From assembly GCF_013122565.1 (NCBI RefSeq), contig NZ_CP053258.1: a DNA stretch of 64,000 nt; one strand, 5' to 3'. Under the pieces are notes generated by a model, which was given only the letters and a program-made list of their open reading frames with translations, searched no databases and was not told the DNA's origin. Made by a program: the position numbers and the translations under genes. Below, in pieces: positions 18,808 to 32,149 of the stretch (position 1 is its first letter; each line of letters opens with the position of its first letter). Source of the DNA: Escherichia coli. Lineage in GTDB: Bacteria; Pseudomonadota; Gammaproteobacteria; Enterobacterales; Enterobacteriaceae.

Positions 18808-20280
18808 ATGGTACCTGTGGTCGCGCTTGTCGGGCGCCCTAACGTAGGAAAATCCACGTTATTTAACCGTCTAACTCGCACCCGAGATGCGCTGGTTGCG
18901 GATTTCCCGGGTCTGACTCGTGACCGTAAGTACGGTCGTGCGGAAATTGAAGGCCGTGAGTTTATCTGTATTGATACCGGCGGGATTGATGGTACAGAAG
19001 ACGGTGTAGAAACCCGCATGGCGGAACAGTCGCTGCTGGCGATTGAAGAAGCGGACGTCGTACTGTTTATGGTGGATGCGCGCGCGGGCCTGATGCCGGC
19101 AGATGAAGCGATTGCCAAACATCTGCGCTCCCGTGAAAAACCGACCTTCCTGGTGGCAAACAAAACTGACGGTCTGGATCCCGATCAGGCAGTGGTTGAT
19201 TTCTACTCGCTTGGTTTAGGTGAAATCTACCCGATCGCCGCGTCTCACGGTCGTGGCGTATTAAGTCTGCTGGAGCATGTGCTACTGCCGTGGATGGAAG
19301 ATCTCGCACCGCAAGAGGAAGTCGACGAAGACGCTGAATACTGGGCGCAATTTGAAGCGGAAGAGAACGGCGAAGAAGAAGAGGAAGACGACTTCGACCC
19401 GCAAAGTCTGCCGATCAAACTGGCGATTGTGGGTCGTCCGAACGTAGGTAAGTCTACACTCACTAACCGTATTCTTGGTGAAGAGCGCGTTGTTGTTTAT
19501 GACATGCCTGGTACGACGCGTGACAGTATCTACATTCCAATGGAACGCGATGGACGTGAGTATGTGCTCATTGACACCGCTGGCGTACGTAAACGCGGTA
19601 AAATCACCGATGCTGTAGAGAAATTCTCCGTAATCAAAACGTTGCAGGCCATTGAAGATGCCAACGTGGTGATGTTGGTGATTGATGCGCGCGAAGGTAT
19701 TTCCGATCAGGATCTCTCCCTGCTGGGCTTTATTCTCAATAGTGGGCGCTCACTTGTCATTGTGGTGAATAAGTGGGATGGCCTGAGCCAGGAAGTGAAA
19801 GAGCAGGTGAAAGAAACGCTGGACTTCCGTCTGGGCTTTATCGATTTTGCTCGTGTGCACTTTATCTCTGCCTTGCACGGCAGTGGTGTTGGTAACTTGT
19901 TTGAATCAGTACGTGAAGCGTATGACAGCTCCACCCGTCGTGTGGGGACCTCTATGCTGACGCGCATCATGACGATGGCTGTTGAAGATCACCAACCGCC
20001 GCTGGTACGCGGTCGTCGTGTGAAGCTGAAATATGCACACGCCGGTGGTTATAATCCGCCGATTGTGGTGATTCACGGTAACCAGGTGAAAGACCTGCCT
20101 GATTCCTACAAGCGTTACTTGATGAACTACTTCCGCAAATCGCTGGACGTAATGGGATCGCCGATTCGTATTCAGTTCAAAGAAGGGGAAAACCCGTATG
20201 CGAACAAGCGTAACACCCTGACGCCAACCCAGATGCGTAAACGTAAGCGCCTGATGAAGCACATCAAGAAAAGTAAGTAA
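18808..20280 (+). CDS. der: Double-domain ribosome-assembly GTPase Der (EngA)
   Basis: 490 aa from ATG at 18808 with GAGG SD (track ORF starts earlier); two GRPNVGKS P-loops. Confidence 0.95.
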
Positions 20281-20342
20281 TTACTTATCTGGTTTCCCTT
20301 TTCTCATGGAGAGGGAAACCGAATAACACGCGAGGAGTATTG

Positions 20343-20558
20343 ATGGAATTCAATTGCCCAACCTGCCATAAACCTCTCGAACATCACGGCGAGACGGCTC
20401 ATTGCGTAACTTGCGACAAAGATTTCACCATCCAGGCACTTTGCCCTGACTGCCATCAGCCGCTACAGGTGTTAAAGGCTTGTGGCGCTGTGGACTATTT
20501 CTGCCAACATGGCCACGGATTAATTTCTAAAAAACGCGTTGAGTTTATTATTGCTTAA
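20343..20558 (+). CDS. yfgJ: Zinc-ribbon protein YfgJ
   Basis: 71 aa from ATG at 20343 with GAGGAG SD; CxxC...CxxC pairs. Confidence 0.85.
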   Translation: MEFNCPTCHKPLEHHGETAHCVTCDKDFTIQALCPDCHQPLQVLKACGAVDYFCQHGHGLISKKRVEFIIA

Positions 20559-20575
20559 TATCATCTGAATGTATG

Positions 20576-20610
20576 GTTTTATCATTTGTATTTAATATAT
20601 AAATGATAAA
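20576..20610. promoter_or_regulatory. Perfect 10-bp inverted repeat in AT-rich region upstream of sinH
   Basis: tttatcattt-N13-aaatgataaa. Confidence 0.3.
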
Positions 20611-20767
20611 GCCATCTCTTATTGGTTAAATCACTAGTACATGTGAGTGAAATCATTTTGATAAATTTTTAGGAATATATTTAGTTTTTCTGACGTGCCT
20701 TCCTGAATGTTCTGGCATAGAATATTAGAGCTTATTCATCAAATTATCATTGCCACAGGGAAAGTGC

Positions 20768-22942
20768 ATGCTGCGATGGAGTCGCTTTATAATGTTACTA
20801 TTTATCTCTGCTGCAACTCCTGCGGCAGAGATAAATAGTAAGCAAAATGAATCGTTACCTGATTTAGGCAGCCAGGCGGCTCAACAAGTAGAACAAACGG
20901 ATAAGGGTAAATCGTTAAAAGAGCGTGGAGCCGATTACGTCATCGATTCTGCTACGCAAGGGTTCGAAAACCTGACCCCCGAGGCGCTGGAATCTCAGGC
21001 CAGAAGCTATCTGCAAAGTCAAATCACCTCAACCGCGCAATCTTATATTGAAGAGACACTCTCTCCCTACGGTAAGGTCCGTTCGAATCTCTCTATTGGT
21101 CAAGGTGGCGATCTGGATGGTAGCTCCATCGATTATTTTGTTCCCTGGTATGATAATCAAACGACCGTTTATTTCAGTCAATTTTCTGCGCAACGAAAAG
21201 AGGACCGTACGATCGGGAATATCGGAATTGGAGCAAGACATAATTTCGATGAATGGCTTTTGGGTGGAAATATATTTTACGATTATGATTTCACCCGTGG
21301 GCATCGACGTTTAGGTTTGGGGACAGAGGCCTGGACCAATTATTTAAAATTTTCTGGCAACTATTATCATCCGCTCTCTGACTGGAAAGACTCTGAAGAT
21401 TTCGACTTTTATGAAGAGCGCCCTGCGCGCGGTTGGGATATTCGCGCTGAAGCCTGGTTACCTTCTTATCCGCAACTGGGGGGCAAAATTGTCTTCGAGC
21501 AATATTACGGTGATGAAGTCGCCCTTTTTGGTACGGATAATTTAGAGAAAGATCCCTATGCGGTGACGCTAGGACTGAATTATCAACCGGTACCGTTACT
21601 GACAGTTGGAACGGATTATAAAGCGGGGACAGGAGATAACAGCGATGTCAGCATTAATGCCACTCTTAATTATCAATTCGGCGTTCCGCTAAAAGATCAA
21701 CTCGACAGCAATAAAGTAAAAGCAGCCCACTCGTTGATGGGCAGTCGCCATGATTTTGTCGAGCGTAATAACTTTATCGTCCTGGAATATAAAGAGAAAG
21801 ACCCTCTGGATGTGACGTTGTGGCTGAAAGCGGATGCGACCAACGAGCACCCTGAGTGCGTCATTAAGGACACTCCAGAAGCGGCGATCGGGCTGGAAAA
21901 ATGTAAGTGGACCATTAACGCACTGATCAATCACCACTACAAAATTGTCGCTGCGTCATGGCAGGCGAAAAACAATGCCGCCCGCACGCTGGTGATGCCG
22001 GTCATCAAAGAAAATACCATCACTGAAGGCAACAACAACCACTGGAATCTGATACTGCCAGCCTGGCAGTACAGCTCTGACAAAGCCGAGCAGGAAAAAC
22101 TCAACACCTGGCGGGTACGGCTGGCGCTGGAAGATGAAAAGGGTAATCGGCAAAACTCCGGCCTGGTTGAGATCACCGTTCAGCAGGACCGTAAAATTGA
22201 GCTGACCGTCAATAACATTGCTGATGTGCCTGATGAGAATAACCACAGCCATGAAGCCAGCGCTCAGGCGGATGGCGTTGATGGTGTGGTCATGGACCTC
22301 GAGGTGACGGACAGTTTTGGCGATAACACGGACCGCAACGGTGATGCTCTGCCAGAAGATAATCTTGCACCGCAGCTCTACGACGCTCAGGACAAAAAAG
22401 TCACGCTAACCAATAAACCCTGCTCGACCGACAACCCCTGCGTGTTTATTGCCAAACAAGATAAAGAAAAGGGAACGGTAACCCTCTCCAGTACATTGCC
22501 AGGCGTTTTCCGCTGGAAAGCGAAAGCGGCTCCCTACGATGACAGTAACTATGTGGATGTCACGTTTATTGGATCTGATATCGGCGGGCTTAATGCTTTC
22601 ATTTACCGGCTTGGGGGAGCGAAGCCAGTCAATTTGATCGGCAATGATAAAGACCCCCTGCCGCTGGGCAACACGTACCGATTTGTGTTGTGGCGTGATG
22701 CCAACAAAGACGGCGTTTTTCAGCAGTCGGAAAAACTAACCGATGAAGAGATGACTCAGTACGACTACAAGTGGGAATTTACCGGCAAGAGCATCAATGG
22801 CGAAGTAGGTGCGCAGGCGAACACATCCAATGCAGACATTGTAATACCGGCGACCAACCGTGAAGCGGCGCAATCCTATGGTGCAAAAGTGGAAGATGGC
22901 TTGCAGGGTTACGGTTTACGCGTGCTGTACACCAAAAAATAA
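20768..22942 (+). CDS. sinH: Inverse autotransporter adhesin, intimin/invasin family (SinH-like)
   Basis: 724 aa from ATG at 20768 with AGGGA SD (track starts at 20750); signal peptide; N-terminal beta-barrel-like region; C-terminal passenger; gene absent at this site in K-12. Confidence 0.8.
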   Translation: MLRWSRFIMLLFISAATPAAEINSKQNESLPDLGSQAAQQVEQTDKGKSLKERGADYVIDSATQGFENLTPEALESQARSYLQSQITSTAQSYIEETLSPYGKVRSNLSIGQGGDLDGSSIDYFVPWYDNQTTVYFSQFSAQRKEDRTIGNIGIGARHNFDEWLLGGNIFYDYDFTRGHRRLGLGTEAWTNYLKFSGNYYHPLSDWKDSEDFDFYEERPARGWDIRAEAWLPSYPQLGGKIVFEQYYGDEVALFGTDNLEKDPYAVTLGLNYQPVPLLTVGTDYKAGTGDNSDVSINATLNYQFGVPLKDQLDSNKVKAAHSLMGSRHDFVERNNFIVLEYKEKDPLDVTLWLKADATNEHPECVIKDTPEAAIGLEKCKWTINALINHHYKIVAASWQAKNNAARTLVMPVIKENTITEGNNNHWNLILPAWQYSSDKAEQEKLNTWRVRLALEDEKGNRQNSGLVEITVQQDRKIELTVNNIADVPDENNHSHEASAQADGVDGVVMDLEVTDSFGDNTDRNGDALPEDNLAPQLYDAQDKKVTLTNKPCSTDNPCVFIAKQDKEKGTVTLSSTLPGVFRWKAKAAPYDDSNYVDVTFIGSDIGGLNAFIYRLGGAKPVNLIGNDKDPLPLGNTYRFVLWRDANKDGVFQQSEKLTDEEMTQYDYKWEFTGKSINGEVGAQANTSNADIVIPATNREAAQSYGAKVEDGLQGYGLRVLYTKK

Positions 22943-22996
22943 GATTGGCGTAAGGCCAGTCGGCCAGTCGCTGAAGATTCATTAAGGAGAGACTCA

Positions 22997-23974
22997 ATGA
23001 AGCAGGACAAAAGACGCGGTCTGACCCGGATCGCATTGGCGCTGGCACTGGCTGGTTACTGCGTGACGCCCCTGGCGCTGGCGGAAGACAGCGCGTGGAT
23101 CGACAGCGGCGAGACCAATATTTTCCAGGGGACTATTCCGTGGCTCTACCCCGTTGATGAAGATGAGGTAACTGGCGCGGGTCGGGTGACGTTAACCTCT
23201 GACTATAAAGGTACTCGTCCGTCGGGAAGTACATCCGACAAGCGTATGTACTCTGGCGACAAATTAACGCTCAGTTGGGTGATTGGCGATACTGAAGGCG
23301 ACGTCGATCTTGGTACGGCGGGTAAAGATGCAAAAACCATCGACACCATCCGCTGGATGAGCTACAAGGACGCCCAGGGTGGCGATCCGAAAGAGCTGGC
23401 AACAAAGGTGACCACTTACACCCTTACCGATGCCGACCGTGGTCGTTATATCGGTATTGAAATTACCCCAACCACCCAGACGGGTACGCCATACGTTGGG
23501 ACTGCGCTGCATCTTTATGATGTTTCGAATGCTAACGGCGGGGGAAGCGATAAAGATAACGTTGATCCAGGACCGGTAGTTAACCAGAACCTGAAAGTCG
23601 CCATCTTTGTTAAAGACACCTCGACTAACCTCATTAACGGTAGTACGCCAATCCAGTTGGGCAAAACGTACGTCGCCAAACTGTACTCGGATGAGAACAA
23701 AAACGGTCAGTATGACGCAGGTACTGACGTTGATGTTACCGCCAATTACGACTTCCGTTGGGTTCTTTCTGACACCAGCGATCAGCTCGGTACGGGGGGC
23801 GGCATTGTTAACTCAAGCTTCGATAATCAAAACCTGGTCATCCCTGCGACCAACGACGAAGCCAGAACCAACCTTAACGGCCCTGCTCGTGATGGCAAAG
23901 ATGCCCTTGCGATCCCGACCAACGGCGATGGGGTTCAGGGTTACAAACTGCAGATTATCTACAAACACAAATAA
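22997..23974 (+). CDS. sinI: Secreted protein homologous to the C-terminal domain of SinH (SinI-like)
   Basis: 325 aa; signal peptide; last ~80 aa align with the SinH C-terminus (...VIPATN.EA...GVQGY.L...Y.K). Confidence 0.75.
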   Translation: MKQDKRRGLTRIALALALAGYCVTPLALAEDSAWIDSGETNIFQGTIPWLYPVDEDEVTGAGRVTLTSDYKGTRPSGSTSDKRMYSGDKLTLSWVIGDTEGDVDLGTAGKDAKTIDTIRWMSYKDAQGGDPKELATKVTTYTLTDADRGRYIGIEITPTTQTGTPYVGTALHLYDVSNANGGGSDKDNVDPGPVVNQNLKVAIFVKDTSTNLINGSTPIQLGKTYVAKLYSDENKNGQYDAGTDVDVTANYDFRWVLSDTSDQLGTGGGIVNSSFDNQNLVIPATNDEARTNLNGPARDGKDALAIPTNGDGVQGYKLQIIYKHK

Positions 23975-24094
23975 CACTTGCTCAACAGCATTCCCGCAAG
24001 GGAATGCTGTTTCCGCATATTTTGCTTAATCCAGGATTAAGCAAAATATGTTGATGCGGTAACCGTTCGTTAAATAACTGGTGGAGTTCTTTTC

Positions 24095-27000
24095 ATGTCC
24101 CAGCCCCTGAAACCCGGCACTTTTTATGTTCTGCTTGTATTGCTGCTAACCGCAATGCTGCCGGGATGGTCATGGGCGGGCTCATCATGGCAAGACTCAT
24201 CCGATACGGCGGGTGAATTTAACGGTACCGTCCCCAATGCCGACAGCGCCAGTATGCCGGTTTATCAGGGCAGTATTTGGCTTGATCCTGCAAAGCCCCA
24301 TGATGTTTCGTTTTCCGCTAAACCCAATGAATTTAGCGTTAATCTGGATGTGTCGAAGCTGATTGTGACGAACCCGCAGGACCTGGAAGGCGATGTGTTT
24401 ACCAACCCGCGTTGGGAAAACCAAACGCCGCCAGTGGTCTCTTTAGTCTGGGCGGATGCGGCGACACCGGAAACCCCACTTAATCCTCAGCCAGTGGCTG
24501 GGCGTTCCTTTTGTGCGCAAGGGCTTGCCGGGCGTTCGCTGGTTGTCTGGCCGCAGCCAGACCCACAGCAGACCATGCCGCAGCTTTATCTACGCACCTC
24601 GACAGGTTATCCCTATGAAAGTCTTCTGACGCTTGTCGATAAGAAAGTGACGTTAAATATTGCACCGGCCCAGGGCGACTTAATTTCTGTCAGCGCGGCC
24701 GGTTATGACGACACCGTGGGCGGGGCGAAAACTACCGTTGGCGGCAATATCACGTTGACCGTTACCACCAAAGACTGCAGCGGTAACGTTGCCGGAAATA
24801 TTCCTTTTATTATCAAACGCAAAGATGCTGAAAACCGACAGGGCGCAGTCAACAATGCTTCGCCGGTTGTTCTGGACAAAACTGAACTGACCACTATCGC
24901 GACCGAATATCACAGCACCACGGATGCGAACGGCGTTGCGACGATCACGGTCACGCAACCCAACGGCCCTGGTGTAAAAACGCCGCTGGTAGCCAGTCTT
25001 TCAGGTATTGGTCAAACCAGTGAAACGGCAGTGATCTTTACCGTCCTTACCAGCCCGGATGTCCCTCAAGCCATGATGTGGGGCCATATGCCCGATACGC
25101 TAAAGGCCCATGATTATACGTTCAGTCGGCCAAAACTGGCGGCGGAGGTCGATAACGAAAATGGTACCGTTAACGATCACAATGAAACCTGGTCTACCTT
25201 CACCTGGAATGGTGCGGATAAACATTGCGACATTTTGCCTGGTATGCGCCAGTTTGGCGCGTTGGCAACGGTGGTGCCCACGACAGTTCAGGATCTCGTT
25301 GGTTGGCCGATACAGGGTAACTACTACTGGTCATCACTGGCGGGGATGACCGGACAGCACCATGCGGCGGATGTTTCCAACCGTAGCGAAGCGCAAAAAC
25401 CGGACGATACGACGTTTATTGTCAGTTGTGTCGATAAAGACGCTCCTGACGTTGAACCGAAACTGGTGCTAACACCGGGAAGCTATGATTCGACGTTAAA
25501 GGCGATGAAAGTAAAGGTGGGGGAAGAAGCGTCTCTGCGTGTAACCATCACCGATAATAAAAACAATAATCAACCGCTGGCGTATTACTACTTTTCGTTA
25601 CATCTGGATGACGGCATCAACCGTAAAAATCAATCGGATGCGGCATGGGAAGCGCATCCGGTGCAGATAGCGGGTGGCAGCAATGTCCATCAGGTTGACG
25701 CGCATACCTATGAAGGCATTACGGATGTGAACGGTCAGGCATCACTGACGCTAACGCAACCGGGCGGCGCGGGCGTGAAAACACACATTACTGCGAAAAT
25801 GCGCAGCGACTTCACCACGTCGGATGAGAAAGACGTGATTTTTACAGTCATTACCAGCCCCGATACTGACAAAGCCCGGATGTGGGGGCATATGCAGGGT
25901 ATTATTGATTCTAATAATATCTTTAAACGTCCACGGCTGGCAGATGAAACCGACCATGAACTCGATTCAGTGCGAGAGAACAACGAAGACTGGGCGCTGT
26001 TCGACCAAAATGGCAGCATGCAGGCTGAATGTGGTGTAGGTCATATTCCGAGCCAGAATCAATTACAGGGTCTGTTCACGGCGCATCCTGGCAATGCGAT
26101 TGGCACCGAATATGGCTGGCCGACGGCGCAAAAAGATTACCTTAGTGCGGTACAACAAGAGCCACACTCCTCCGTGAACCTGGGCACAGGTAACATCGAC
26201 ACCTATTCAGGCTTTAAGCAGAACTATCTCTCCTGTTCCGGTAATGAGATGGTTGCTCAGATTACCGCAACGACCGATCATGACGTTTCCGTGGGTAGCA
26301 GGGCGCAGGCTAAAGTTGGAGAAACCGTCACCATGACGGTGCATACCTTCAATGCACTGAATAATGCGCCCGTGCCGTTTACCGCCTTCAGCATCACAAA
26401 GGAGATGGGTAAAAACCGTCAGGGGCAGACTACCGGATATACCGATCCGACGAGTGGCGCAATTGAGATGAATGGCAAGCTCTACGGAACATCCCAGGCC
26501 TCGGTGGTTTATTCCGGGACTACGGATGCACAGGGCTACGCAACGGTGGAGATTGAACAACCGCAGGGCGTGGGCTTAGCGACGCCGCTAAATATTGCGC
26601 CTGTGAACTCCTACATTCCCAATACAGTAAATTACAACGTGATTTTCACCACGCCTACCAGCCCGGATGCGGTGGCGGCGCAGATGTGGGGGCATATGGA
26701 TGAGACTATTACAGTCGATTCTTTAACCTTCACCCGGCCTAAACTGGCAGCGGAAGTTTCCAGCCCGGATGCGACATTGACAGAAAATAATGAAGTCTGG
26801 GCGCGTGTGAGTCAGGCGAATACATCCAGTATAAGTAAAGGTGGCTGCGGAGCGAATATGCTGCCGCGTCGATCCCAGCTTAGCGCGCTCTATGATGCCA
26901 ATAACGGTAATGCTGTACAGACAGTACACGGCTGGCCAACTCTGCGTGAGCCTTACTGGAGTAGTTCCCCTGCGGATAAAGTTCCTCATTTTTACACCAT

Positions 27001-30000
27001 TGCTCTCAATGATGGCGCACAGGCTATTGGCGGTAGCAACGCGGTTTATGTCAGCTGCCTGACGACGGCAAATAATCCTGCAAACGCTATTACTTTAGAG
27101 GTGGTGGATCAGGCGCAATGGAACGCGACGGCGAAAGCGGCGAAGCTGAAAAAAGGCGAAACGCTCCAGGTTAAGGTAACGGTGAAGGATGCTCAGGGCA
27201 ATGCACTGTCGGATATGCCATTCACCCTGAAACGTGGCGATGGTTATACTCGCTCAAATGAAAAACATATTGCTGGCAGCGGGGATGCGCTGGTTGCGCC
27301 AGTCATCGTCAACGGTGGCCTGACGGATGAGACTTCACTGAATGACACCGCGACAGCATACGCTACCATGACCGGCAGCGACGGCACTAAAATACTTACC
27401 ATAACCCGCCCTGAGACGCATGGCACCAAAACGGCGCTGATCGCTGCGCTGTATTCTGATGCAACGAAAAACGCCAGCCTCGACACCATTTTTACCGTTG
27501 CGACCAGCCCGGACAGCGATAAGGCGAAAATGTGGGGGCACATGGCGGAAACGGTGACGGCTACTGACGGCACGGTATTTAAACGCCCGCGCTTACTGAA
27601 AGAGTGGTCAACTCAGTCCTCTCTTACTGAAGATAATGAGGTCTGGGGGTTGTATAACATCAGCGATGCAAAATCTACCAGCAATGGCTGTGGCGCTAAT
27701 TATGTTCCTGCGCAGGTTGGGCTGGAGTCACTGTTTGACAATAACCGCAGCAACGCGATGAAAACCGTACAAGGTTGGCCGGTAGATACCCATTATCTTT
27801 CAAATACCTCAAGTACCGACAGTTTATCGCAGCATAATTACAAAGCCGTGGATCTGGGCAATGGTACCAGTACCTCAATATCCGCTTCCGAGAGGAAGTT
27901 GTTAACCTGCCAGACGACCGCGGTGTTACAGGCAAGCCAGATTCTGCTGGACGCAGCGGATCCAACCACCTTCGACAGCACAAATAATGTTGTCAAAGTT
28001 AAAAAAGGCGAAGCGGCAGTGGTGCGTGTAACCACGAAGGATTCGCAGGGGAATCCTGTAGGAAATACCGCATTTACCCTCAAACGAAACCACAGCGTGA
28101 ACAGGGCTAATGCGTCGAATACCACGTCGATTGCTTCACTGGTGGTAACGGATGCATGGGGAAATACTCAGGACAGTTTTCTTTCAACGTCCCTGGTCAT
28201 ATATGGCGTAACGGGGGCCGATGGCACCACCACCTTTACACTGAAACAAGACCAGTCTACCGGCTTAAAAACGGAACTCACGGCAGCGCTGGACTCCTCC
28301 AGCAGCATTACATCGTCGCTTCCCGTCGTCTTTACGGTGCTTACCAGCCCGGATTCGCCAAAAGCCAAATTCTGGGGGCATATGGCTGAAACGGCGACAG
28401 GCGATGACGGTCTCATTTATAAAAGACCATTGCTGAGAGACGAGATTAGCGCCTCTAGCGGTATCAGCACCCTGACAGAAGAGGGGGAAAACTGGTCTGC
28501 ATTCTGGGCGAACAATGCTAATGATACTTCGATAAGTGGTTGTGGCGCAGAGTATGTTCCCTCTGCCGATGAACTTAAGGCCATTTATGCGCACCAGGGG
28601 GGGAGCGCATTGCATGGTGCTATTGGCTGGCCAGTTTCGAAGCCCTATATCTCGAATACCGTCGCAGATATGTTCACTCAACCCTTTAAGTTTGATGTCG
28701 TTTCGCTGAAGACAGGAGATGAAACACAGATTTCATCAGGTAGTGGTGTAGGGCCTCTGAGTTGCCGGACCACACCTGTCGCCGTTGCCAGTCAGATCAT
28801 TGTTGAGGCGAACGATGCGGCGCAATTTGTCAAAGTTGACGATACCTTGAGTGCACTGAAAGTGAAAAAAGGTGAAGACGCGGTGATTCGCGTGGTGACC
28901 AAGGATGCGCAGGGGAATACCGTGCCCAATGTTCCCTTTATTCTCAAGCGCGAGGGCTCGAGAAACCGTCAAAATGTCGAGATGATAAACAAATCGATTA
29001 CGGTGATTAACGCGGCAGGGACTTCTACGAATGTGCTTAGTTCGTCAACACTGCTTTATGGGGTAACGGGCGCGGACGGGACTACCACGTTTACAGTAAA
29101 ACAAGATGATTCTATGGGTCTGATGACCAATATGTACGCTCAGTTGTATCAGTCGACGATAGAATCCAACAAATTACCGGTGATGTTTACCGTTATAACC
29201 AGCCCGGATACGCCTCTGGCAAACTACTGGGGGCATATGTCTGAAACCTTCACGACAAGGTCGGGGGTTGTCTTCAAGCGGCCAATGCTTAGTGCCGAGC
29301 ATCCAGCGGGGCAGTCAACCGTGGATAATAATGAAACCTGGCTTTCCTTGAATACAGCAGCAAAAAATGATGTCAGCAAATCAGGCTGTGACGAACCTTA
29401 TCAACCGTTATTAAGCGAACTTCAGGAGTTGTACAGTGAACATCCTAATGGTGCGATAGGAACCGATTTAGGCCTGCCGCTGACGAAAACCTGGTGGGCT
29501 TACGATAAAGTGGCCAACTCGAATGCCTGGTACGATCAGTCTGTTAATTTGTCGAATGGGTCAAGCGCCAGGGCGTCGTCAACCACCGTGGCGTTTGTGC
29601 CCTGTCTGGTAAACCCTCATCCAGTGGCTGCTTCTATTGAGATAACCTCCACGGCACTGGATGCGGAGAAAACGGCCAGTAACGATGGTCGCCCCAGCGC
29701 AACCGCACCGAAAGGTACGGCGATCCGGATGACGGTGATTGTGCGGGATAGCGCAGGAAATCCATTGCCCGGCGCCAACTTTAACCTCGTACGCGGGACG
29801 GCATTGGATCGTGCAAAATACAGTGTCGATAGTTCAGCTGATGATCTTACTCTCGTGCCTGTCACGCCTGCTGGCGTAAATATGACTCTCACGAGTAATA
29901 CATCAAAAGCACTGTTGACGACAGGCAGTGATGGTAAAGTGACCTTTGATGTGACGCAAAACGGGACTTATGGGCTGGCAACCCCGCTCACTGCAACATT

Positions 30001-32149
30001 GCTACGCGACACTTCAATAAGCGCCACGATGGATGTCATTTTCACGGTGATAACCAGTCCCGACTCACCGAAAGCAAAATACTGGGGTCATATGCCCGAC
30101 ACGTTTACCAGCAGTGCGGGGGTGACCTTTAAACGGCCGCTACTGGCAGCCGAAGCGACCTCCGGGTCCTCGGTTGGCAGTAATAATGAGTCGTGGTCAT
30201 ACATTGGTATTAACGAAAGAGCTACGTCGGATTGCTCACTGGAGTATCAGCCGCGTCTTAATGAGTTACAGGGGTTATATAACGATCATCCTGGCGGGGC
30301 CATACAGACGGATCTGGGGTTACCTGTAGCTGCCGGAAGTGGAAACTGGTGGGCTTATGAAATGAGTATGCCTAACCCCAGCGGGTCGGTGTGGTTTTAC
30401 GGCATCATTAATTTGAAAACGGGACAATCGTCGACCACGTCGAGTGGATTCGCTTTAATGCTCTGCCTGACGCAGCCGCATACGGTACCGGCAAGCCTTA
30501 CACTGTCATCAACCGCCTACGATGAAGGCAGAACCGCCAGCAATGGTGGCACACCTACGTCATCTGTGAAAAAAGGTGAGACGCTTCCCTTAGTGGTGAC
30601 GATCAAAGATGCCAATGGTAACCCCGTTGGCGGCGAAGGCGTTACGCTCAAGCGCGCGCAGGCGAAAAGCCGTTCAGGTATCTCTGTCTCCCCCACTACC
30701 GCCGATGATCTTATTTTAAATGAAGTCACACCGGAATCAGCCAGCTTTTCCTTCGCCGCGGATTTGGCATCATGGAGCGGCATCACCGGCAGTGACGGCA
30801 CTGTAACGTTCAATATTACACAAAAAAATACAATCGGCCTGGTAACGCCGTTTACAGCCTCATTGGGGCGAAATCCGCAGGTCACCGCCAACCAGGACCT
30901 GATGTTCACGGTGGTAACCAGCCCGGATTCGCCGAAGGCAAACTACTGGGGGCATATGCCAGCAACCTTGACGGCAGTGAATGGTGCGGTATTTGAACGC
31001 CCGAAATTGTGGAGTGAACTGCCATCGACCTCCGGCGTCGGCAAGATCAATAACAATAATGAGGACTGGCCGTACTATTCACCGACAAAAAAATCTGATG
31101 AGAGTGTGACCCCTTGCGAAGTGGCAAGACAGCCTCTGCTTAGTGATTTAAATTCGCTGTCTGCGCGTTATCCGAATAACTCCTTCGCTGCTGAAACGGG
31201 CTGGTCTGTGTATTACACCTGGTGGGCAGAGGATAAATCCGCCGCGGGTAAAGATCAGTCGGTGGATTTGAGAGATGGCACGCTGTATACGTATGCATCA
31301 GGAGCATTTCAACCTTGCCTGGTTAACGCGCGTTCAACTGTTTCTAGCGTCACACTTACCTCAACGGCGTTTGACGCTACCACTCAGGCGGCGAAAGTGA
31401 AAAAAGGCGAAGCCATGCCGGTGACGGTCACGGTGAAAGACAGCGCCGGGAAAACGGTGCCGAATGTGGCTTTTACCCTGAAACGCGGTGATGCTGCGCC
31501 AAGAAACCCTGGTATGGCCTTGTACGGTGATGTGGATGCGATGGATGACCTGACCGTTCAACCGACATCGGGAGCGGCGGTGACGTGGTCTGAAAGTGGC
31601 AACTTGCTACAGGGGACCACTGGCTCTGACGGCACCGCGACGTTTATGATTAAACAGGATCATTCGCCGGGCTATAAAACCCCTTTGACGGTCACGTTGG
31701 ACAATAACACCAGCATCACTGCGACAATGGACGCTATTTTCACCGTCGTGACCAGCCCGAATGTCTCAAGCGCCTATTACTGGGGGCACATGGCAGATAC
31801 GACCACGGTGAACGGTAAAACACTGCATCGCCCGTTGTTGGCATCGGAGCTACCTGCGAATGCTTCTTCCCCAGCCACGCCTGACGTAAACAATGAAGCC
31901 TGGGCTATGGGGCATATGGTGGATTCAAGGAATTGGGATATCGAGGCGCAGTGTGGCAGCTTGACCAACGCGCCAAACGATGACGACTTAATGGGTCTGT
32001 ATACTAACTTTAGTTCGCTGGGTTGGCCTGCATCCCCGAGTTTTCCTTACTTATCTTCTCAGAGATGCGGCGTGTTTGAGAACAGTGGACAACAGGACTG
32101 CGCTATTGCGCCAGGCAACACAAAAGGTTTTGTGACTTGTACCCAATAA
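24095..32149 (+). CDS. ratA: Giant repetitive surface/secreted protein (RatA-like)
   Basis: 2684 aa; signal peptide; nine ~275-aa repeats each with F-T-V-x-T-S-P-D...W-G-H-M and two conserved cysteines. Confidence 0.85.
24990..31830 (+). repeat. Nine imperfect tandem coding repeats of ~810-860 bp inside ratA
   Basis: ccagcccggat...tgggggcatatg recurs near 25045, 25855, 26660, 27505, 28345, 29205, 30055, 30915, 31755. Confidence 0.85.

What the first reader, a model, noticed from the sequence alone, without database searches (positions are those of the whole stretch)
22997..23974. SinI-like protein is a free-standing paralogue of the SinH C-terminal domain
The last ~80 residues of the 325-aa protein align with the SinH C-terminus (SinH ...YDYKWEFTGKS...NADIVIPATNREAAQ...GLQGYGLRVLYTKK versus SinI ...YDFRWVLSDTS...NQNLVIPATNDEARTN...GVQGYKLQIIYKHK). 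The same terminal module therefore exists both tethered to an inverse-autotransporter barrel and as a separate secreted protein; it could be a soluble competitor, a partner or a decoy.
Basis: seen in the sequence. Interest (0 to 1): 0.5.

Follow-up and report, generated by a model that had tools for sequence, protein, structure and literature searches.

The report
SinI shares SinH's tip domain
The small exported protein SinI really does carry a diverged copy of the outermost domain of the neighbouring adhesin SinH, but this resemblance is already published and the gene family already has a name.

Summary
The 325-aa ORF at 22997-23974 is SinI (NCBIfam NF040711). Its C-terminal ~125 residues are homologous to the last ~120 residues of SinH (BLASTP E=9e-12; profile-profile E=1.3e-21).

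The shared unit is one domain, SinH Ig-like domain 3, which is the published 'SinH-3' vaccine antigen. SinI is not a bare copy of it. It also has a Sec-type signal peptide, a conserved N-terminal motif and an unrelated first beta-sandwich domain.

The duplication is ancient. Identity between the two modules is 37% whether they come from the same genome or from different genomes, so there is no gene conversion. sinH-sinI-ratA order held in every locus with enough flank. sinI is under purifying selection (dN/dS 0.12-0.17) but diverges faster than sinH.

The SinH/SinI similarity and the ZirT/ZirS-like 'co-encoded substrate' idea were published by Kingsley 2003 (as cited) and Heinz 2016. The finding is therefore already known.

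One side observation was not found in the papers I read. The mature N-termini of SinI and the RatA-like protein share a motif, W..(S/T)T..(I/F)xGTxP, which co-varies within genomes and could be a shared export or docking signal. 'Partner or substrate of SinH' is the best reading. 'Decoy' is weakly supported.

The parts
20768..22942 (+). sinH (iatB), an intimin-like inverse autotransporter. The open frame starts at TTG 20750 (730 aa); the RefSeq-style ATG start at 20768 gives 724 aa.
   Evidence: NCBIfam NF033423 scores 1465 bits against a cut-off of 999. Pfam IAT_beta covers residues 68-341, E=3.8e-107. The PDB invasin and intimin barrels match at 5e-72 and 2e-63. The RefSeq annotation of the 97.7%-identical E. 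coli MB53 locus agrees.
22583..22939 (+). SinH C-terminal module, residues 612-730 of the TTG ORF. This is Ig-like domain 3, the published 'SinH-3' putative receptor-binding domain.
   Evidence: BLASTP and hhalign against SinI. Xing 2023 defines SinH-3 as residues 602-724 (PMC9937491). pLDDT is 71-83 in the fusion model.
22984..22989 (+). Shine-Dalgarno sequence AAGGAG, 7 nt upstream of the sinI ATG. The 54-bp sinH-sinI spacer has no terminator-like site.
   Evidence: Sequence read directly. The terminator scan lists nothing between 22943 and 22996.
22997..23974 (+). sinI, encoding a SinI family autotransporter-associated protein of 325 aa.
   Evidence: NCBIfam NF040711 scores 321.9 bits against a cut-off of 165. 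140 homologues were found across Enterobacteriaceae. dN/dS is 0.12-0.17.
22997..23083 (+). Predicted Sec signal peptide, residues 1-29: basic n-region KQDKRRGLTR, hydrophobic core, and A-L-A before the predicted cleavage site.
   Evidence: Sequence inspection and family alignment, including conserved LALxxAGYC. No signal-peptide predictor was available.
23093..23149 (+). Mature N-terminal motif of SinI, residues 33-51: AWIDSGETNIFQGTIPWLY.
   Evidence: It is conserved across the SinI family. An HMM of it finds the N-terminus of every RatA-like protein and nothing else. pLDDT is about 40 in the SinI-only model and 84 for residues 34-43 in the SinH-SinI fusion model.
23183..23521 (+). SinI domain 1, a beta-sandwich spanning about residues 63-175. 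It has no detectable homology to SinH.
   Evidence: AlphaFold strands E64-173. Weak hits to ZirU_fam (residues 76-208, E=1.5e-4, 22 bits, below cut-off) and Pfam IG_AIR9 (E=0.022). hhalign finds no SinH match.
23585..23971 (+). SinI C-terminal module, residues 197-325, the paralogue of SinH domain 3.
   Evidence: pLDDT is 76-95.
23984..24051 (+). Two conserved hairpins between sinI and ratA. The first is a GC-rich stem followed by Ts (23984-24011). The second is a 17-bp-arm palindrome, TTTGCTTAA..TTAAGCAAA (24015-24051).
   Evidence: RNA fold gives MFE -47.6 kcal/mol, z=-7.0. Both hairpins are present in nearly all 18 related loci; Leminorella L019 lacks the hairpin-2 palindrome. Hairpin 1 shows compensatory changes. 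No Rfam match.
24095..32149 (+). RatA-like giant repeat adhesin (2684 aa), the third gene of the cluster.
   Evidence: NCBIfam NF011844 'RatA-like protein' matches both ends. It sits downstream of sinI in every related locus that extends far enough.
24185..24235 (+). Mature N-terminal motif of the RatA-like protein, residues 31-47: [17 protein letters not shown]. It matches the SinI motif.
   Evidence: The SinI N-motif HMM hits at residues 31-47.

Best explanation
Shown here:
- sinI encodes a conserved, selected, exported-type protein of three parts: a mature N-terminal motif, a first beta-sandwich domain, and a C-terminal domain.
- The C-terminal domain is an ancient paralogue of the distal domain 3 of the inverse autotransporter SinH, encoded immediately upstream.
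- sinH, sinI and a RatA-like giant adhesin form an invariant three-gene cluster, known as the E. coli 'ila' locus and the Salmonella CS54 core.

Inferred:
- SinI is an accessory partner of SinH, not a competitor.
- After Sec export it probably reaches the cell surface or medium in a SinH-dependent way, as ZirS does with the inverse autotransporter ZirT.
- It probably associates with SinH and/or RatA through beta-sandwich contacts.
- The N-terminal motif it shares with RatA could serve as the common recognition or docking element.
- The shared domain-3 fold, including a DxNxDG calcium-loop-like segment in both copies, suggests both bind the same class of ligand or bind each other.
For: - Homology of the module.
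- The module is rare and always terminal. Only 60 representatives out of 1.84 billion match. Full-length matches lie at the extreme C-terminus of either ~300-400-aa SinI-like or ~730-750-aa SinH-like proteins.
- Synteny sinH-sinI-ratA holds in all 17 loci that carried all three genes, with spacers of 36-78 and 71-155 bp. It also holds in a distant metagenomic locus, L022: an inverse autotransporter ending in the module, then a 290-aa SinI-like protein, then an invasin-like protein.
- sinI has a strong SD and no terminator before it. Co-transcription of sinH and sinI, and attenuation of ila-gene mutants, are reported in reviews citing Shea 2022 (PMC12525524; PMC12928451).
- Selection: dN/dS is 0.12-0.17 for sinI and 0.05-0.07 for sinH. 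SinI is 39-73% identical where SinH is 60-94% identical, as expected for an exposed protein.
- Precedent: ZirS secretion depends on ZirT (PMC2270342). Heinz 2016 proposes the same for SinI and Rat proteins (PMC4943183).
- N-terminal motif: it is shared by SinI and all RatA-like proteins. It co-varies within genomes at the protein level but not the DNA level (permutation p=0.0007). It is present in 14 of 15 distant SinI-like representatives against 23 of 269 background ORFs.
- pLDDT of SinI 34-43 rises from about 40 to 84 when the SinH passenger is fused on.
Against: - No localisation or binding data for SinI exist in anything I could read.
- SinI scores only 22 bits on the ZirU model against a cut-off of 100, so the Zir analogy rests on architecture, not membership.
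- Goh 2019 found that IatB (SinH) makes biofilm without the downstream protein (PMC6714894).
- No SinH alignment column separates the two SinI/RatA motif types, so there is no covariation evidence that SinH reads the motif.
- The fusion model has low overall confidence (pLDDT 63.9, pTM 0.40, 16 sequences). The tool returns no contacts or PAE, so the pLDDT rise could come from the different alignment.
- How a folded or large substrate would pass an inverse-autotransporter barrel is unresolved even for ZirT (PMC4943183).
Confidence: 0.5

Rival explanations
1. Soluble competitor or decoy. Released SinI uses its domain-3 copy to occupy the host ligand of SinH, or to absorb antibodies raised against SinH domain 3, and so tunes adhesion or immune recognition.
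For: The two proteins share the fold and conserved patches: DLVIPATNxEA, DGVQGYGL and the DxNxDG loop. SinH domain 3 is immunogenic and protective as a vaccine antigen (PMC9937491; PMC12525524). SinI evolves fast, as immune-exposed proteins do. ZirTS was described as an antivirulence modulator (PMC2270342).
Against: The modules are only 33-42% identical within a genome and form two separate old lineages, which makes epitope mimicry unlikely. The conserved positions are mostly core-type residues: aromatic, Gly and Pro. No SinH ligand is known. SinI carries an extra domain and an N-terminal motif shared with RatA, which a simple decoy would not need.
Confidence: 0.15
2. Periplasmic Ig-like chaperone or assembly factor. 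SinI stays in the periplasm and holds the SinH and/or RatA passengers in a secretion-competent state, as two-domain Ig-like chaperones do for pilus subunits.
For: SinI has two beta-sandwich domains, about 30 kDa in total, and a Sec signal. Heinz 2016 notes that IgSF proteins often act as periplasmic chaperones (PMC4943183). The linkage to sinH and ratA is strict.
Against: There is no Pfam PapD-type domain; only a weak IG_AIR9 hit. SinI diverges two to three times faster than SinH in dN and shows allele replacement next to a 93%-identical SinH passenger. That is atypical for a housekeeping chaperone and typical for surface proteins. RatA carries the same N-terminal motif as SinI, which fits two co-substrates better than a chaperone and its client.
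Confidence: 0.12
3. There is no functional coupling through the shared module. SinI is an independent small adhesin or surface protein, and its C-terminal domain is simply a reused stable fold left by an old duplication.
For: Within-genome and between-genome identity are equal, so there is no co-evolution signal between the two modules. IatB acts without the downstream gene in biofilm assays (PMC6714894).
Against: SinI has no barrel, no lipobox (LAGYC has Tyr at -1) and no other anchor or exit route of its own. The module has been kept at the extreme C-terminus of both proteins, and the gene pair has been kept, across distant taxa.
Confidence: 0.15

Closest known systems
SinH/SinI of the Salmonella CS54 island (Kingsley 2003, as cited) and the E. 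coli ila locus sinH-sinI-ratA / IatB (Goh 2019; Shea 2022, as cited)
   Same: These are the same genes. NCBIfam equivalog and subfamily models are passed. Gene order and flanks match (der upstream, xseA-guaBA downstream). The literature already states that SinI lacks a barrel and resembles the IgSF part of SinH (PMC4943183; PMC6714894).
   Different: This window carries a rare SinI allele. It is 100% or 96% identical only to small clusters, 65% identical to the next E. coli type, and 42-44% identical to the common E. coli and Salmonella types. Salmonella has two rat genes plus shdA; this locus has one RatA-like gene.
ZirT/ZirS/ZirU of Salmonella: an inverse-autotransporter-like translocator with co-encoded Ig-like exoproteins
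   Same: An inverse-autotransporter gene is followed by genes for small Sec-signal proteins that lack a barrel. ZirS export requires ZirT (PMC2270342). The downstream proteins resemble the translocator's IgSF domains (PMC4943183).
   Different: SinI reaches only 22 bits on the ZirU family model against a cut-off of 100, and only over its first domain. No Zir protein was retrieved here for direct comparison. The AFDB hits to 252-297-aa Salmonella 'lipoproteins' (E about 1e-6) could be Zir proteins, but this was not verified. The SinH system also includes a giant Rat adhesin.
Classical two-partner secretion (FhaC/FHA, type Vb)
   Same: The concept is the same: a separate outer-membrane transporter and Sec-exported substrates carrying a conserved N-proximal recognition element.
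   Different: The transporter here is an IAT_beta barrel, not Omp85/POTRA. SinI has no TPS (haemagglutination activity) domain in Pfam. The motif is about 20 residues, not a ~250-residue domain.
Intimin and invasin (type Ve adhesins)
   Same: The SinH barrel is homologous. The passenger consists of Ig-like domains with a distal binding domain (PMC9937491).
   Different: Intimin and invasin have no co-encoded paralogue of their tip domain. SinH domain 3 is not the C-type-lectin-like tip of intimin or invasin. Structure searches with the SinI model, which contains the paralogous module, found only generic Ig/FnIII folds.

Membership tests
SinI family autotransporter-associated protein (NCBIfam NF040711) | Full-length match to the family HMM above the curated cut-off | tested here: met
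   321.9 bits against a cut-off of 165, covering residues 7-322 of 325 and the whole 299-position model.
SinI family autotransporter-associated protein (NCBIfam NF040711) | Encoded immediately downstream of a SinH-type inverse autotransporter | tested here: met
   54-bp spacer in the window. The same arrangement holds in all 18 related loci that carried sinH.
Inverse autotransporter, type Ve (for SinH) | N-terminal IAT_beta barrel followed by a C-terminal passenger | tested here: met
   Pfam PF11924 at residues 68-341, E=3.8e-107. PDB 4e1t and 4e1s barrels match.
ZirS/ZirU-type exoproteins of inverse-autotransporter systems | Sequence membership in the ZirU family model (NF040485) | tested here: not met
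   22 bits against a cut-off of 100, E=1.5e-4, covering SinI residues 76-208 only.
ZirS/ZirU-type exoproteins of inverse-autotransporter systems | Small barrel-less protein with a Sec signal, co-encoded after the translocator gene | tested here: met
   No IAT_beta or any barrel domain. The signal-peptide features were read from the sequence and alignment. Synteny is shown. No signal-peptide predictor was available.
ZirS/ZirU-type exoproteins of inverse-autotransporter systems | Secretion depends on the cognate inverse autotransporter | not testable with these tools
   This needs fractionation of tagged SinI in wild type against a sinH deletion. It has been shown only for ZirS/ZirT (PMC2270342).
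Two-partner secretion substrate (TpsA) | N-terminal TPS domain and an Omp85-type TpsB partner | tested here: not met
   The Pfam scan of SinI shows no TPS domain. The neighbouring transporter is IAT_beta, not Omp85.
PapD-like periplasmic chaperone | PapD N- and C-terminal Pfam domains | tested here: not met
Bacterial lipoprotein | Lipobox [LVI][ASTVI][GAS]C at the end of the signal peptide | tested here: not met
   The conserved sequence is L-A-G-Y-C with Tyr at position -1, followed by an AxA-type site 7 residues later.

The most novel reading that the evidence does not exclude
The ~20-residue motif at the mature N-terminus of SinI and of the RatA-like adhesin is a dedicated targeting or docking signal for inverse-autotransporter 'two-partner' systems. 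The motif is W-x5-7-(S/T)T-x2-(I/F)-x-G-T-x-P. It recurs as T-x-x-I-x-G-x-x-P in distant SinI-like proteins and in third-gene invasin-like proteins. On this reading it either directs the co-encoded proteins to the SinH barrel or passenger for export, or it acts as a donor strand that tethers them to SinH on the surface. The SinH-like domain 3 of SinI would then extend or duplicate the adhesive tip. This would define a recognisable substrate class for type Ve transporters.
Probability: 0.3. Interest if true: 0.6.

Novelty: already known. Interest (0 to 1): 0.27.

Why it matters
SinH domain 3 is being developed as an ExPEC vaccine antigen (SinH-3). The vaccine paper never mentions that the adjacent, co-transcribed gene encodes a second protein with a paralogous domain (PMC9937491). 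If SinI is surface-associated or released, it could affect antibody targeting, adhesion assays with sinH mutants (polar effects on sinI) and the interpretation of ila-locus phenotypes.

More generally, how inverse autotransporters such as ZirT and SinH could export separate proteins is an open question. A shared N-terminal motif on the putative substrates would give a concrete handle for mutagenesis. The paralogy itself adds nothing new beyond sharper boundaries and an estimate of its age.

Tried and rejected
- **PDB sequence searches.** SinI alone and the 38-sequence SinI profile gave no hits, even at E<=10.
- **Further homology between SinI and SinH.** hhalign shows none beyond the terminal module; the second-best alignment has E=0.27. 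The literature phrase 'IgSF domains' (plural) is therefore too generous.
- **Homology between SinI and the body of RatA.** BLASTP gave only the short N-terminal matches at E 0.3-1.3. The profile later showed these to be real.
- **Gene conversion between the two modules.** Rejected: identity is 36.9% within genomes and 36.8% between genomes.
- **Gene conversion between the sinI and ratA motif-coding DNA.** Rejected: identity is 47.4% within genomes and 47.3% between genomes.
- **SinH columns that track the motif type.** None found.
- **Rfam search of 20200-24300.** No match.
- **SinH passenger homologue search.** It returned mostly fragments, so SinH orthologues were taken from the genome loci instead.
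- **Fusion AlphaFold run.** It was meant to test docking, but the tool returns no contacts or PAE, so only a pLDDT change could be read.
- **Shea 2022 (PMC8853676).** Not held. Its results are cited second-hand.
- **Retrieving ZirS/ZirU sequences.** No route was available for a direct comparison.

Full report
**Context**

The window is an Escherichia-type chromosome segment. The order is bamB, der, then three same-strand genes, then xseA (opposite strand) and guaBA. The 20700-24100 stretch is 97.7% identical to E. coli MB53, where RefSeq annotates 'intimin-like inverse autotransporter SinH', 'SinI family autotransporter-associated protein' and an 'adhesion domain-containing protein'. Only 10 E. 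coli genomes match at 95-99% identity. A further 1734 match at 80-90%, so this is a minority allele of a common locus. Reviews call the locus 'ila' (sinH, sinI, ratA) and derive it from the Salmonella CS54 island (PMC12928451).

**Checking the observation**

- The 325-aa ORF at 22997-23974 and all the quoted peptides are present.
- BLASTP aligns SinH 627-730 with SinI 210-325: 36% identity over 120 columns, E=9e-12. Every other segment is noise.
- Using orthologues from 19 further loci, hhalign aligns SinI 197-325 with SinH 606-724 (ATG numbering) at 99.4% probability and E=1.3e-21.
- NCBIfam models show the same reciprocal hit.
- The similarity is therefore real. It spans a whole domain of about 120-130 residues, not the last 80.
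- It is the only region of homology. SinI's first domain matches nothing in SinH.

**Anatomy of SinI**

- The family alignment and the AlphaFold model (pLDDT 74.7) give four parts:
  - a Sec-type signal peptide, residues 1-29;
  - a low-confidence mature N-terminus, residues 30-62, containing a strongly conserved motif;
  - beta-sandwich domain 1, about residues 63-175;
  - beta-sandwich domain 2, residues 194-325, which is the shared module.
- The signal peptide has a basic n-region, the conserved core LALxxAGYC, and an AxA site. It has no lipobox because Tyr precedes the Cys.
- Pfam finds nothing significant.
- Domain 1 gives weak hits to the ZirU family model (22 bits, cut-off 100) and to IG_AIR9.
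- AFDB50 returns SinI orthologues (including E. coli 'Aec3'), mis-named relatives in Hafnia, Yersinia and Fukatsuia, SinH proteins through domain 3, and 252-297-aa Salmonella 'lipoproteins' that I could not identify.

**What the shared module is**

- In SinH it is the distal Ig-like domain 3. Xing et al. call it the receptor-binding domain and use it as the SinH-3 vaccine antigen, residues 602-724. That paper never mentions SinI (PMC9937491).
- The two predicted modules have the same order of secondary-structure elements.
- Both contain a loop matching the EF-hand/DxNxDG pattern: SinH D650-A-N-K-D-G-V-F-Q-Q-S-E661, and SinI-family D-K-N-G-N-G-T-Y-D-T-G-E. I infer possible Ca2+ binding; this was not tested.
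- A profile of the module searched against 1.84 billion representative proteins finds only 60 hits at E<=1e-3.
- All full-length matches sit at the extreme C-terminus of either ~300-400-aa SinI-like proteins or ~730-750-aa SinH-like proteins. The multi-stretch hits in long proteins cover only the loop region.

**Evolution**

- Across 19 genomes carrying both modules, within-genome SinH-versus-SinI module identity (36.9%) equals between-genome identity (36.8%). SinH modules are 57-100% identical to each other and SinI modules 40-100%.
- The duplication therefore predates the split of Escherichia, Citrobacter, Pseudocitrobacter, Superficieibacter and Leminorella, and there is no concerted evolution.
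- sinI is a real, selected gene with dN/dS 0.12-0.17. Selection on it is looser than on sinH, which has dN/dS 0.05-0.07.
- Loci L007 and L008 have a SinH passenger 93% identical to the window's but a SinI only 43-46% identical, which indicates allele replacement.

**Linkage and expression**

- All 18 related loci that carried sinH have it directly upstream of sinI, and 17 of those also have a Rat-like gene directly after sinI.
- A distant metagenomic locus has the same plan.
- sinI has an AAGGAG 7 nt before its ATG, and no terminator-like site lies in the 54-bp spacer.
- A review citing Shea 2022 states that sinH and sinI are co-transcribed (PMC12525524). Another reports attenuation of ila mutants in murine UTI (PMC12928451). 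I could not read the primary paper.

**What is already known**

Heinz et al. 2016 state that SinI lacks a barrel but resembles the IgSF part of SinH. They attribute this to Kingsley 2003. They propose SinI and the Rat proteins as substrates of SinH by analogy with ZirT/ZirS/ZirU (PMC4943183). Goh et al. 2019 repeat this for E. coli IatB (PMC6714894). ZirT-dependent secretion of ZirS is experimental (PMC2270342). What I add is:
- exact module boundaries;
- proof that the homology is confined to one domain;
- evidence that the duplication is ancient;
- the identity of the module with SinH-3.

**Side finding**

- The mature N-termini of SinI and the RatA-like protein share a motif. In the window these are AWIDSGETNIFQGTIPW and [17 protein letters not shown].
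- An HMM built from SinI N-termini hits every RatA-like protein at its mature N-terminus (E 2e-7 to 0.13, except 4.4 for L015) and no other ORF in a set of about 330 (next best E=1.6).
- The variable positions co-vary within genomes. Six loci have F before xGT and lack 'LKxG' in both proteins. Thirteen loci have I or V in both proteins; twelve of these have LKxG in both, and L015 has LESG in RatA. Leminorella lacks the adjacent LKxG in both.
- Within-genome amino-acid identity exceeds that of shuffled pairings (p=0.0007, not corrected for phylogeny). DNA identity does not (47.4% against 47.3%), which argues against gene conversion.
- A looser form of the motif follows the signal peptide in 14 of 15 distant SinI-like representatives, against 23 of 269 background ORFs. 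It also occurs in the third-gene proteins of distant loci.
- Heinz et al. described Rat N-termini as 'highly divergent', and I found no description of the motif.
- In a linker-fused AlphaFold model of the SinH passenger plus mature SinI, residues 34-43 of SinI rise to pLDDT 84, from about 40 alone. The model is weak overall, and no contact information is available.
- No SinH column tracks the motif type.

**Verdict**

'Partner or substrate' is the better-supported role, and it remains untested.

Noticed in passing
window 23093-23149 (SinI residues 33-51) and 24185-24235 (RatA-like residues 31-47); also L003-L020, L022, L024: SinI and the RatA-like adhesin share a motif directly after their signal peptides: W-x5-7-(S/T)T-x2-(I/F)-x-G-T-x-P. 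It co-varies between the two proteins within each genome without DNA-level conversion. It recurs in distant SinI-like and third-gene proteins. It is a candidate common export or docking signal.
   Followed up: yes
window 23984-24051 (sinI-ratA spacer): There are two adjacent hairpins. The first is a GC-rich stem followed by TTTT(T)CC. It is conserved in structure, with compensatory changes across genera. The second is a palindrome conserved in sequence, TTTGCTTA(A/G)-N5-9-TTAAGCAAA, followed by GTTGA. Folding gives z=-7.0 and there is no Rfam match. The pair may act as an attenuator or operator controlling read-through into ratA.
   Followed up: partly
window 22697-22732 (SinH D650-E661) and 23690-23728 (SinI D232-D244): Both copies of the module carry an EF-hand-like DxNxDGx(F/Y)xxxE loop between two strands. 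The module profile also picked up repeated DxDxDG-type loops in unrelated long proteins. This may be a Ca2+ site; it was not tested.
   Followed up: partly
database proteins P0152, P0155, P0157 (SinH::SinI) and P0161, P0162, P0164 (SinH::Rat): These are natural in-frame deletion fusions that join the SinH barrel and proximal passenger to SinI or Rat sequence. The junctions lie at non-homologous points or at microhomology, for example RVRLAL|AGYC. Clusters are small (1-4 sequences). They may be pseudogene-like accidents or viable hybrid autotransporters.
   Followed up: partly
L007, L008 compared with the window (sinH-sinI boundary): The locus is a mosaic. The SinH passenger is 93% identical to the window's, but SinH domain 3 drops to 72-73% and SinI to 43-46%. 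This suggests recombinational allele replacement starting within the end of sinH.
   Followed up: partly
window 20281-20767 (der-sinH spacer), especially 20500-21000: The region upstream of and overlapping the sinH start is AT-rich (38% GC) and contains a 19-bp-stem AT-rich hairpin at 20573-20615. E. coli MB53 annotates a small zinc-ribbon protein gene here. This may be an H-NS-type silenced promoter region.
   Followed up: no
L020 (E. coli E69), L001 (E. coli MB53), L003: Locus decay is visible in some strains. In E69, sinH is split into 230-aa and 488-aa ORFs with an inserted 167-aa ORF between them. The ratA-like gene carries an internal stop in MB53 and is split (254 + 1881 aa) in L003.
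   Followed up: no
AFDB50 hits A0A4Q9ECA7, A0AA90YBE5, A0A2U8I7C8, A0A6G9I9Y7: SinI-like proteins in Hafnia, Yersinia, Candidatus Fukatsuia and Zophobihabitans are labelled 'Ornithine carbamoyltransferase' in UniProt. This appears to be a propagated mis-annotation.
   Followed up: no
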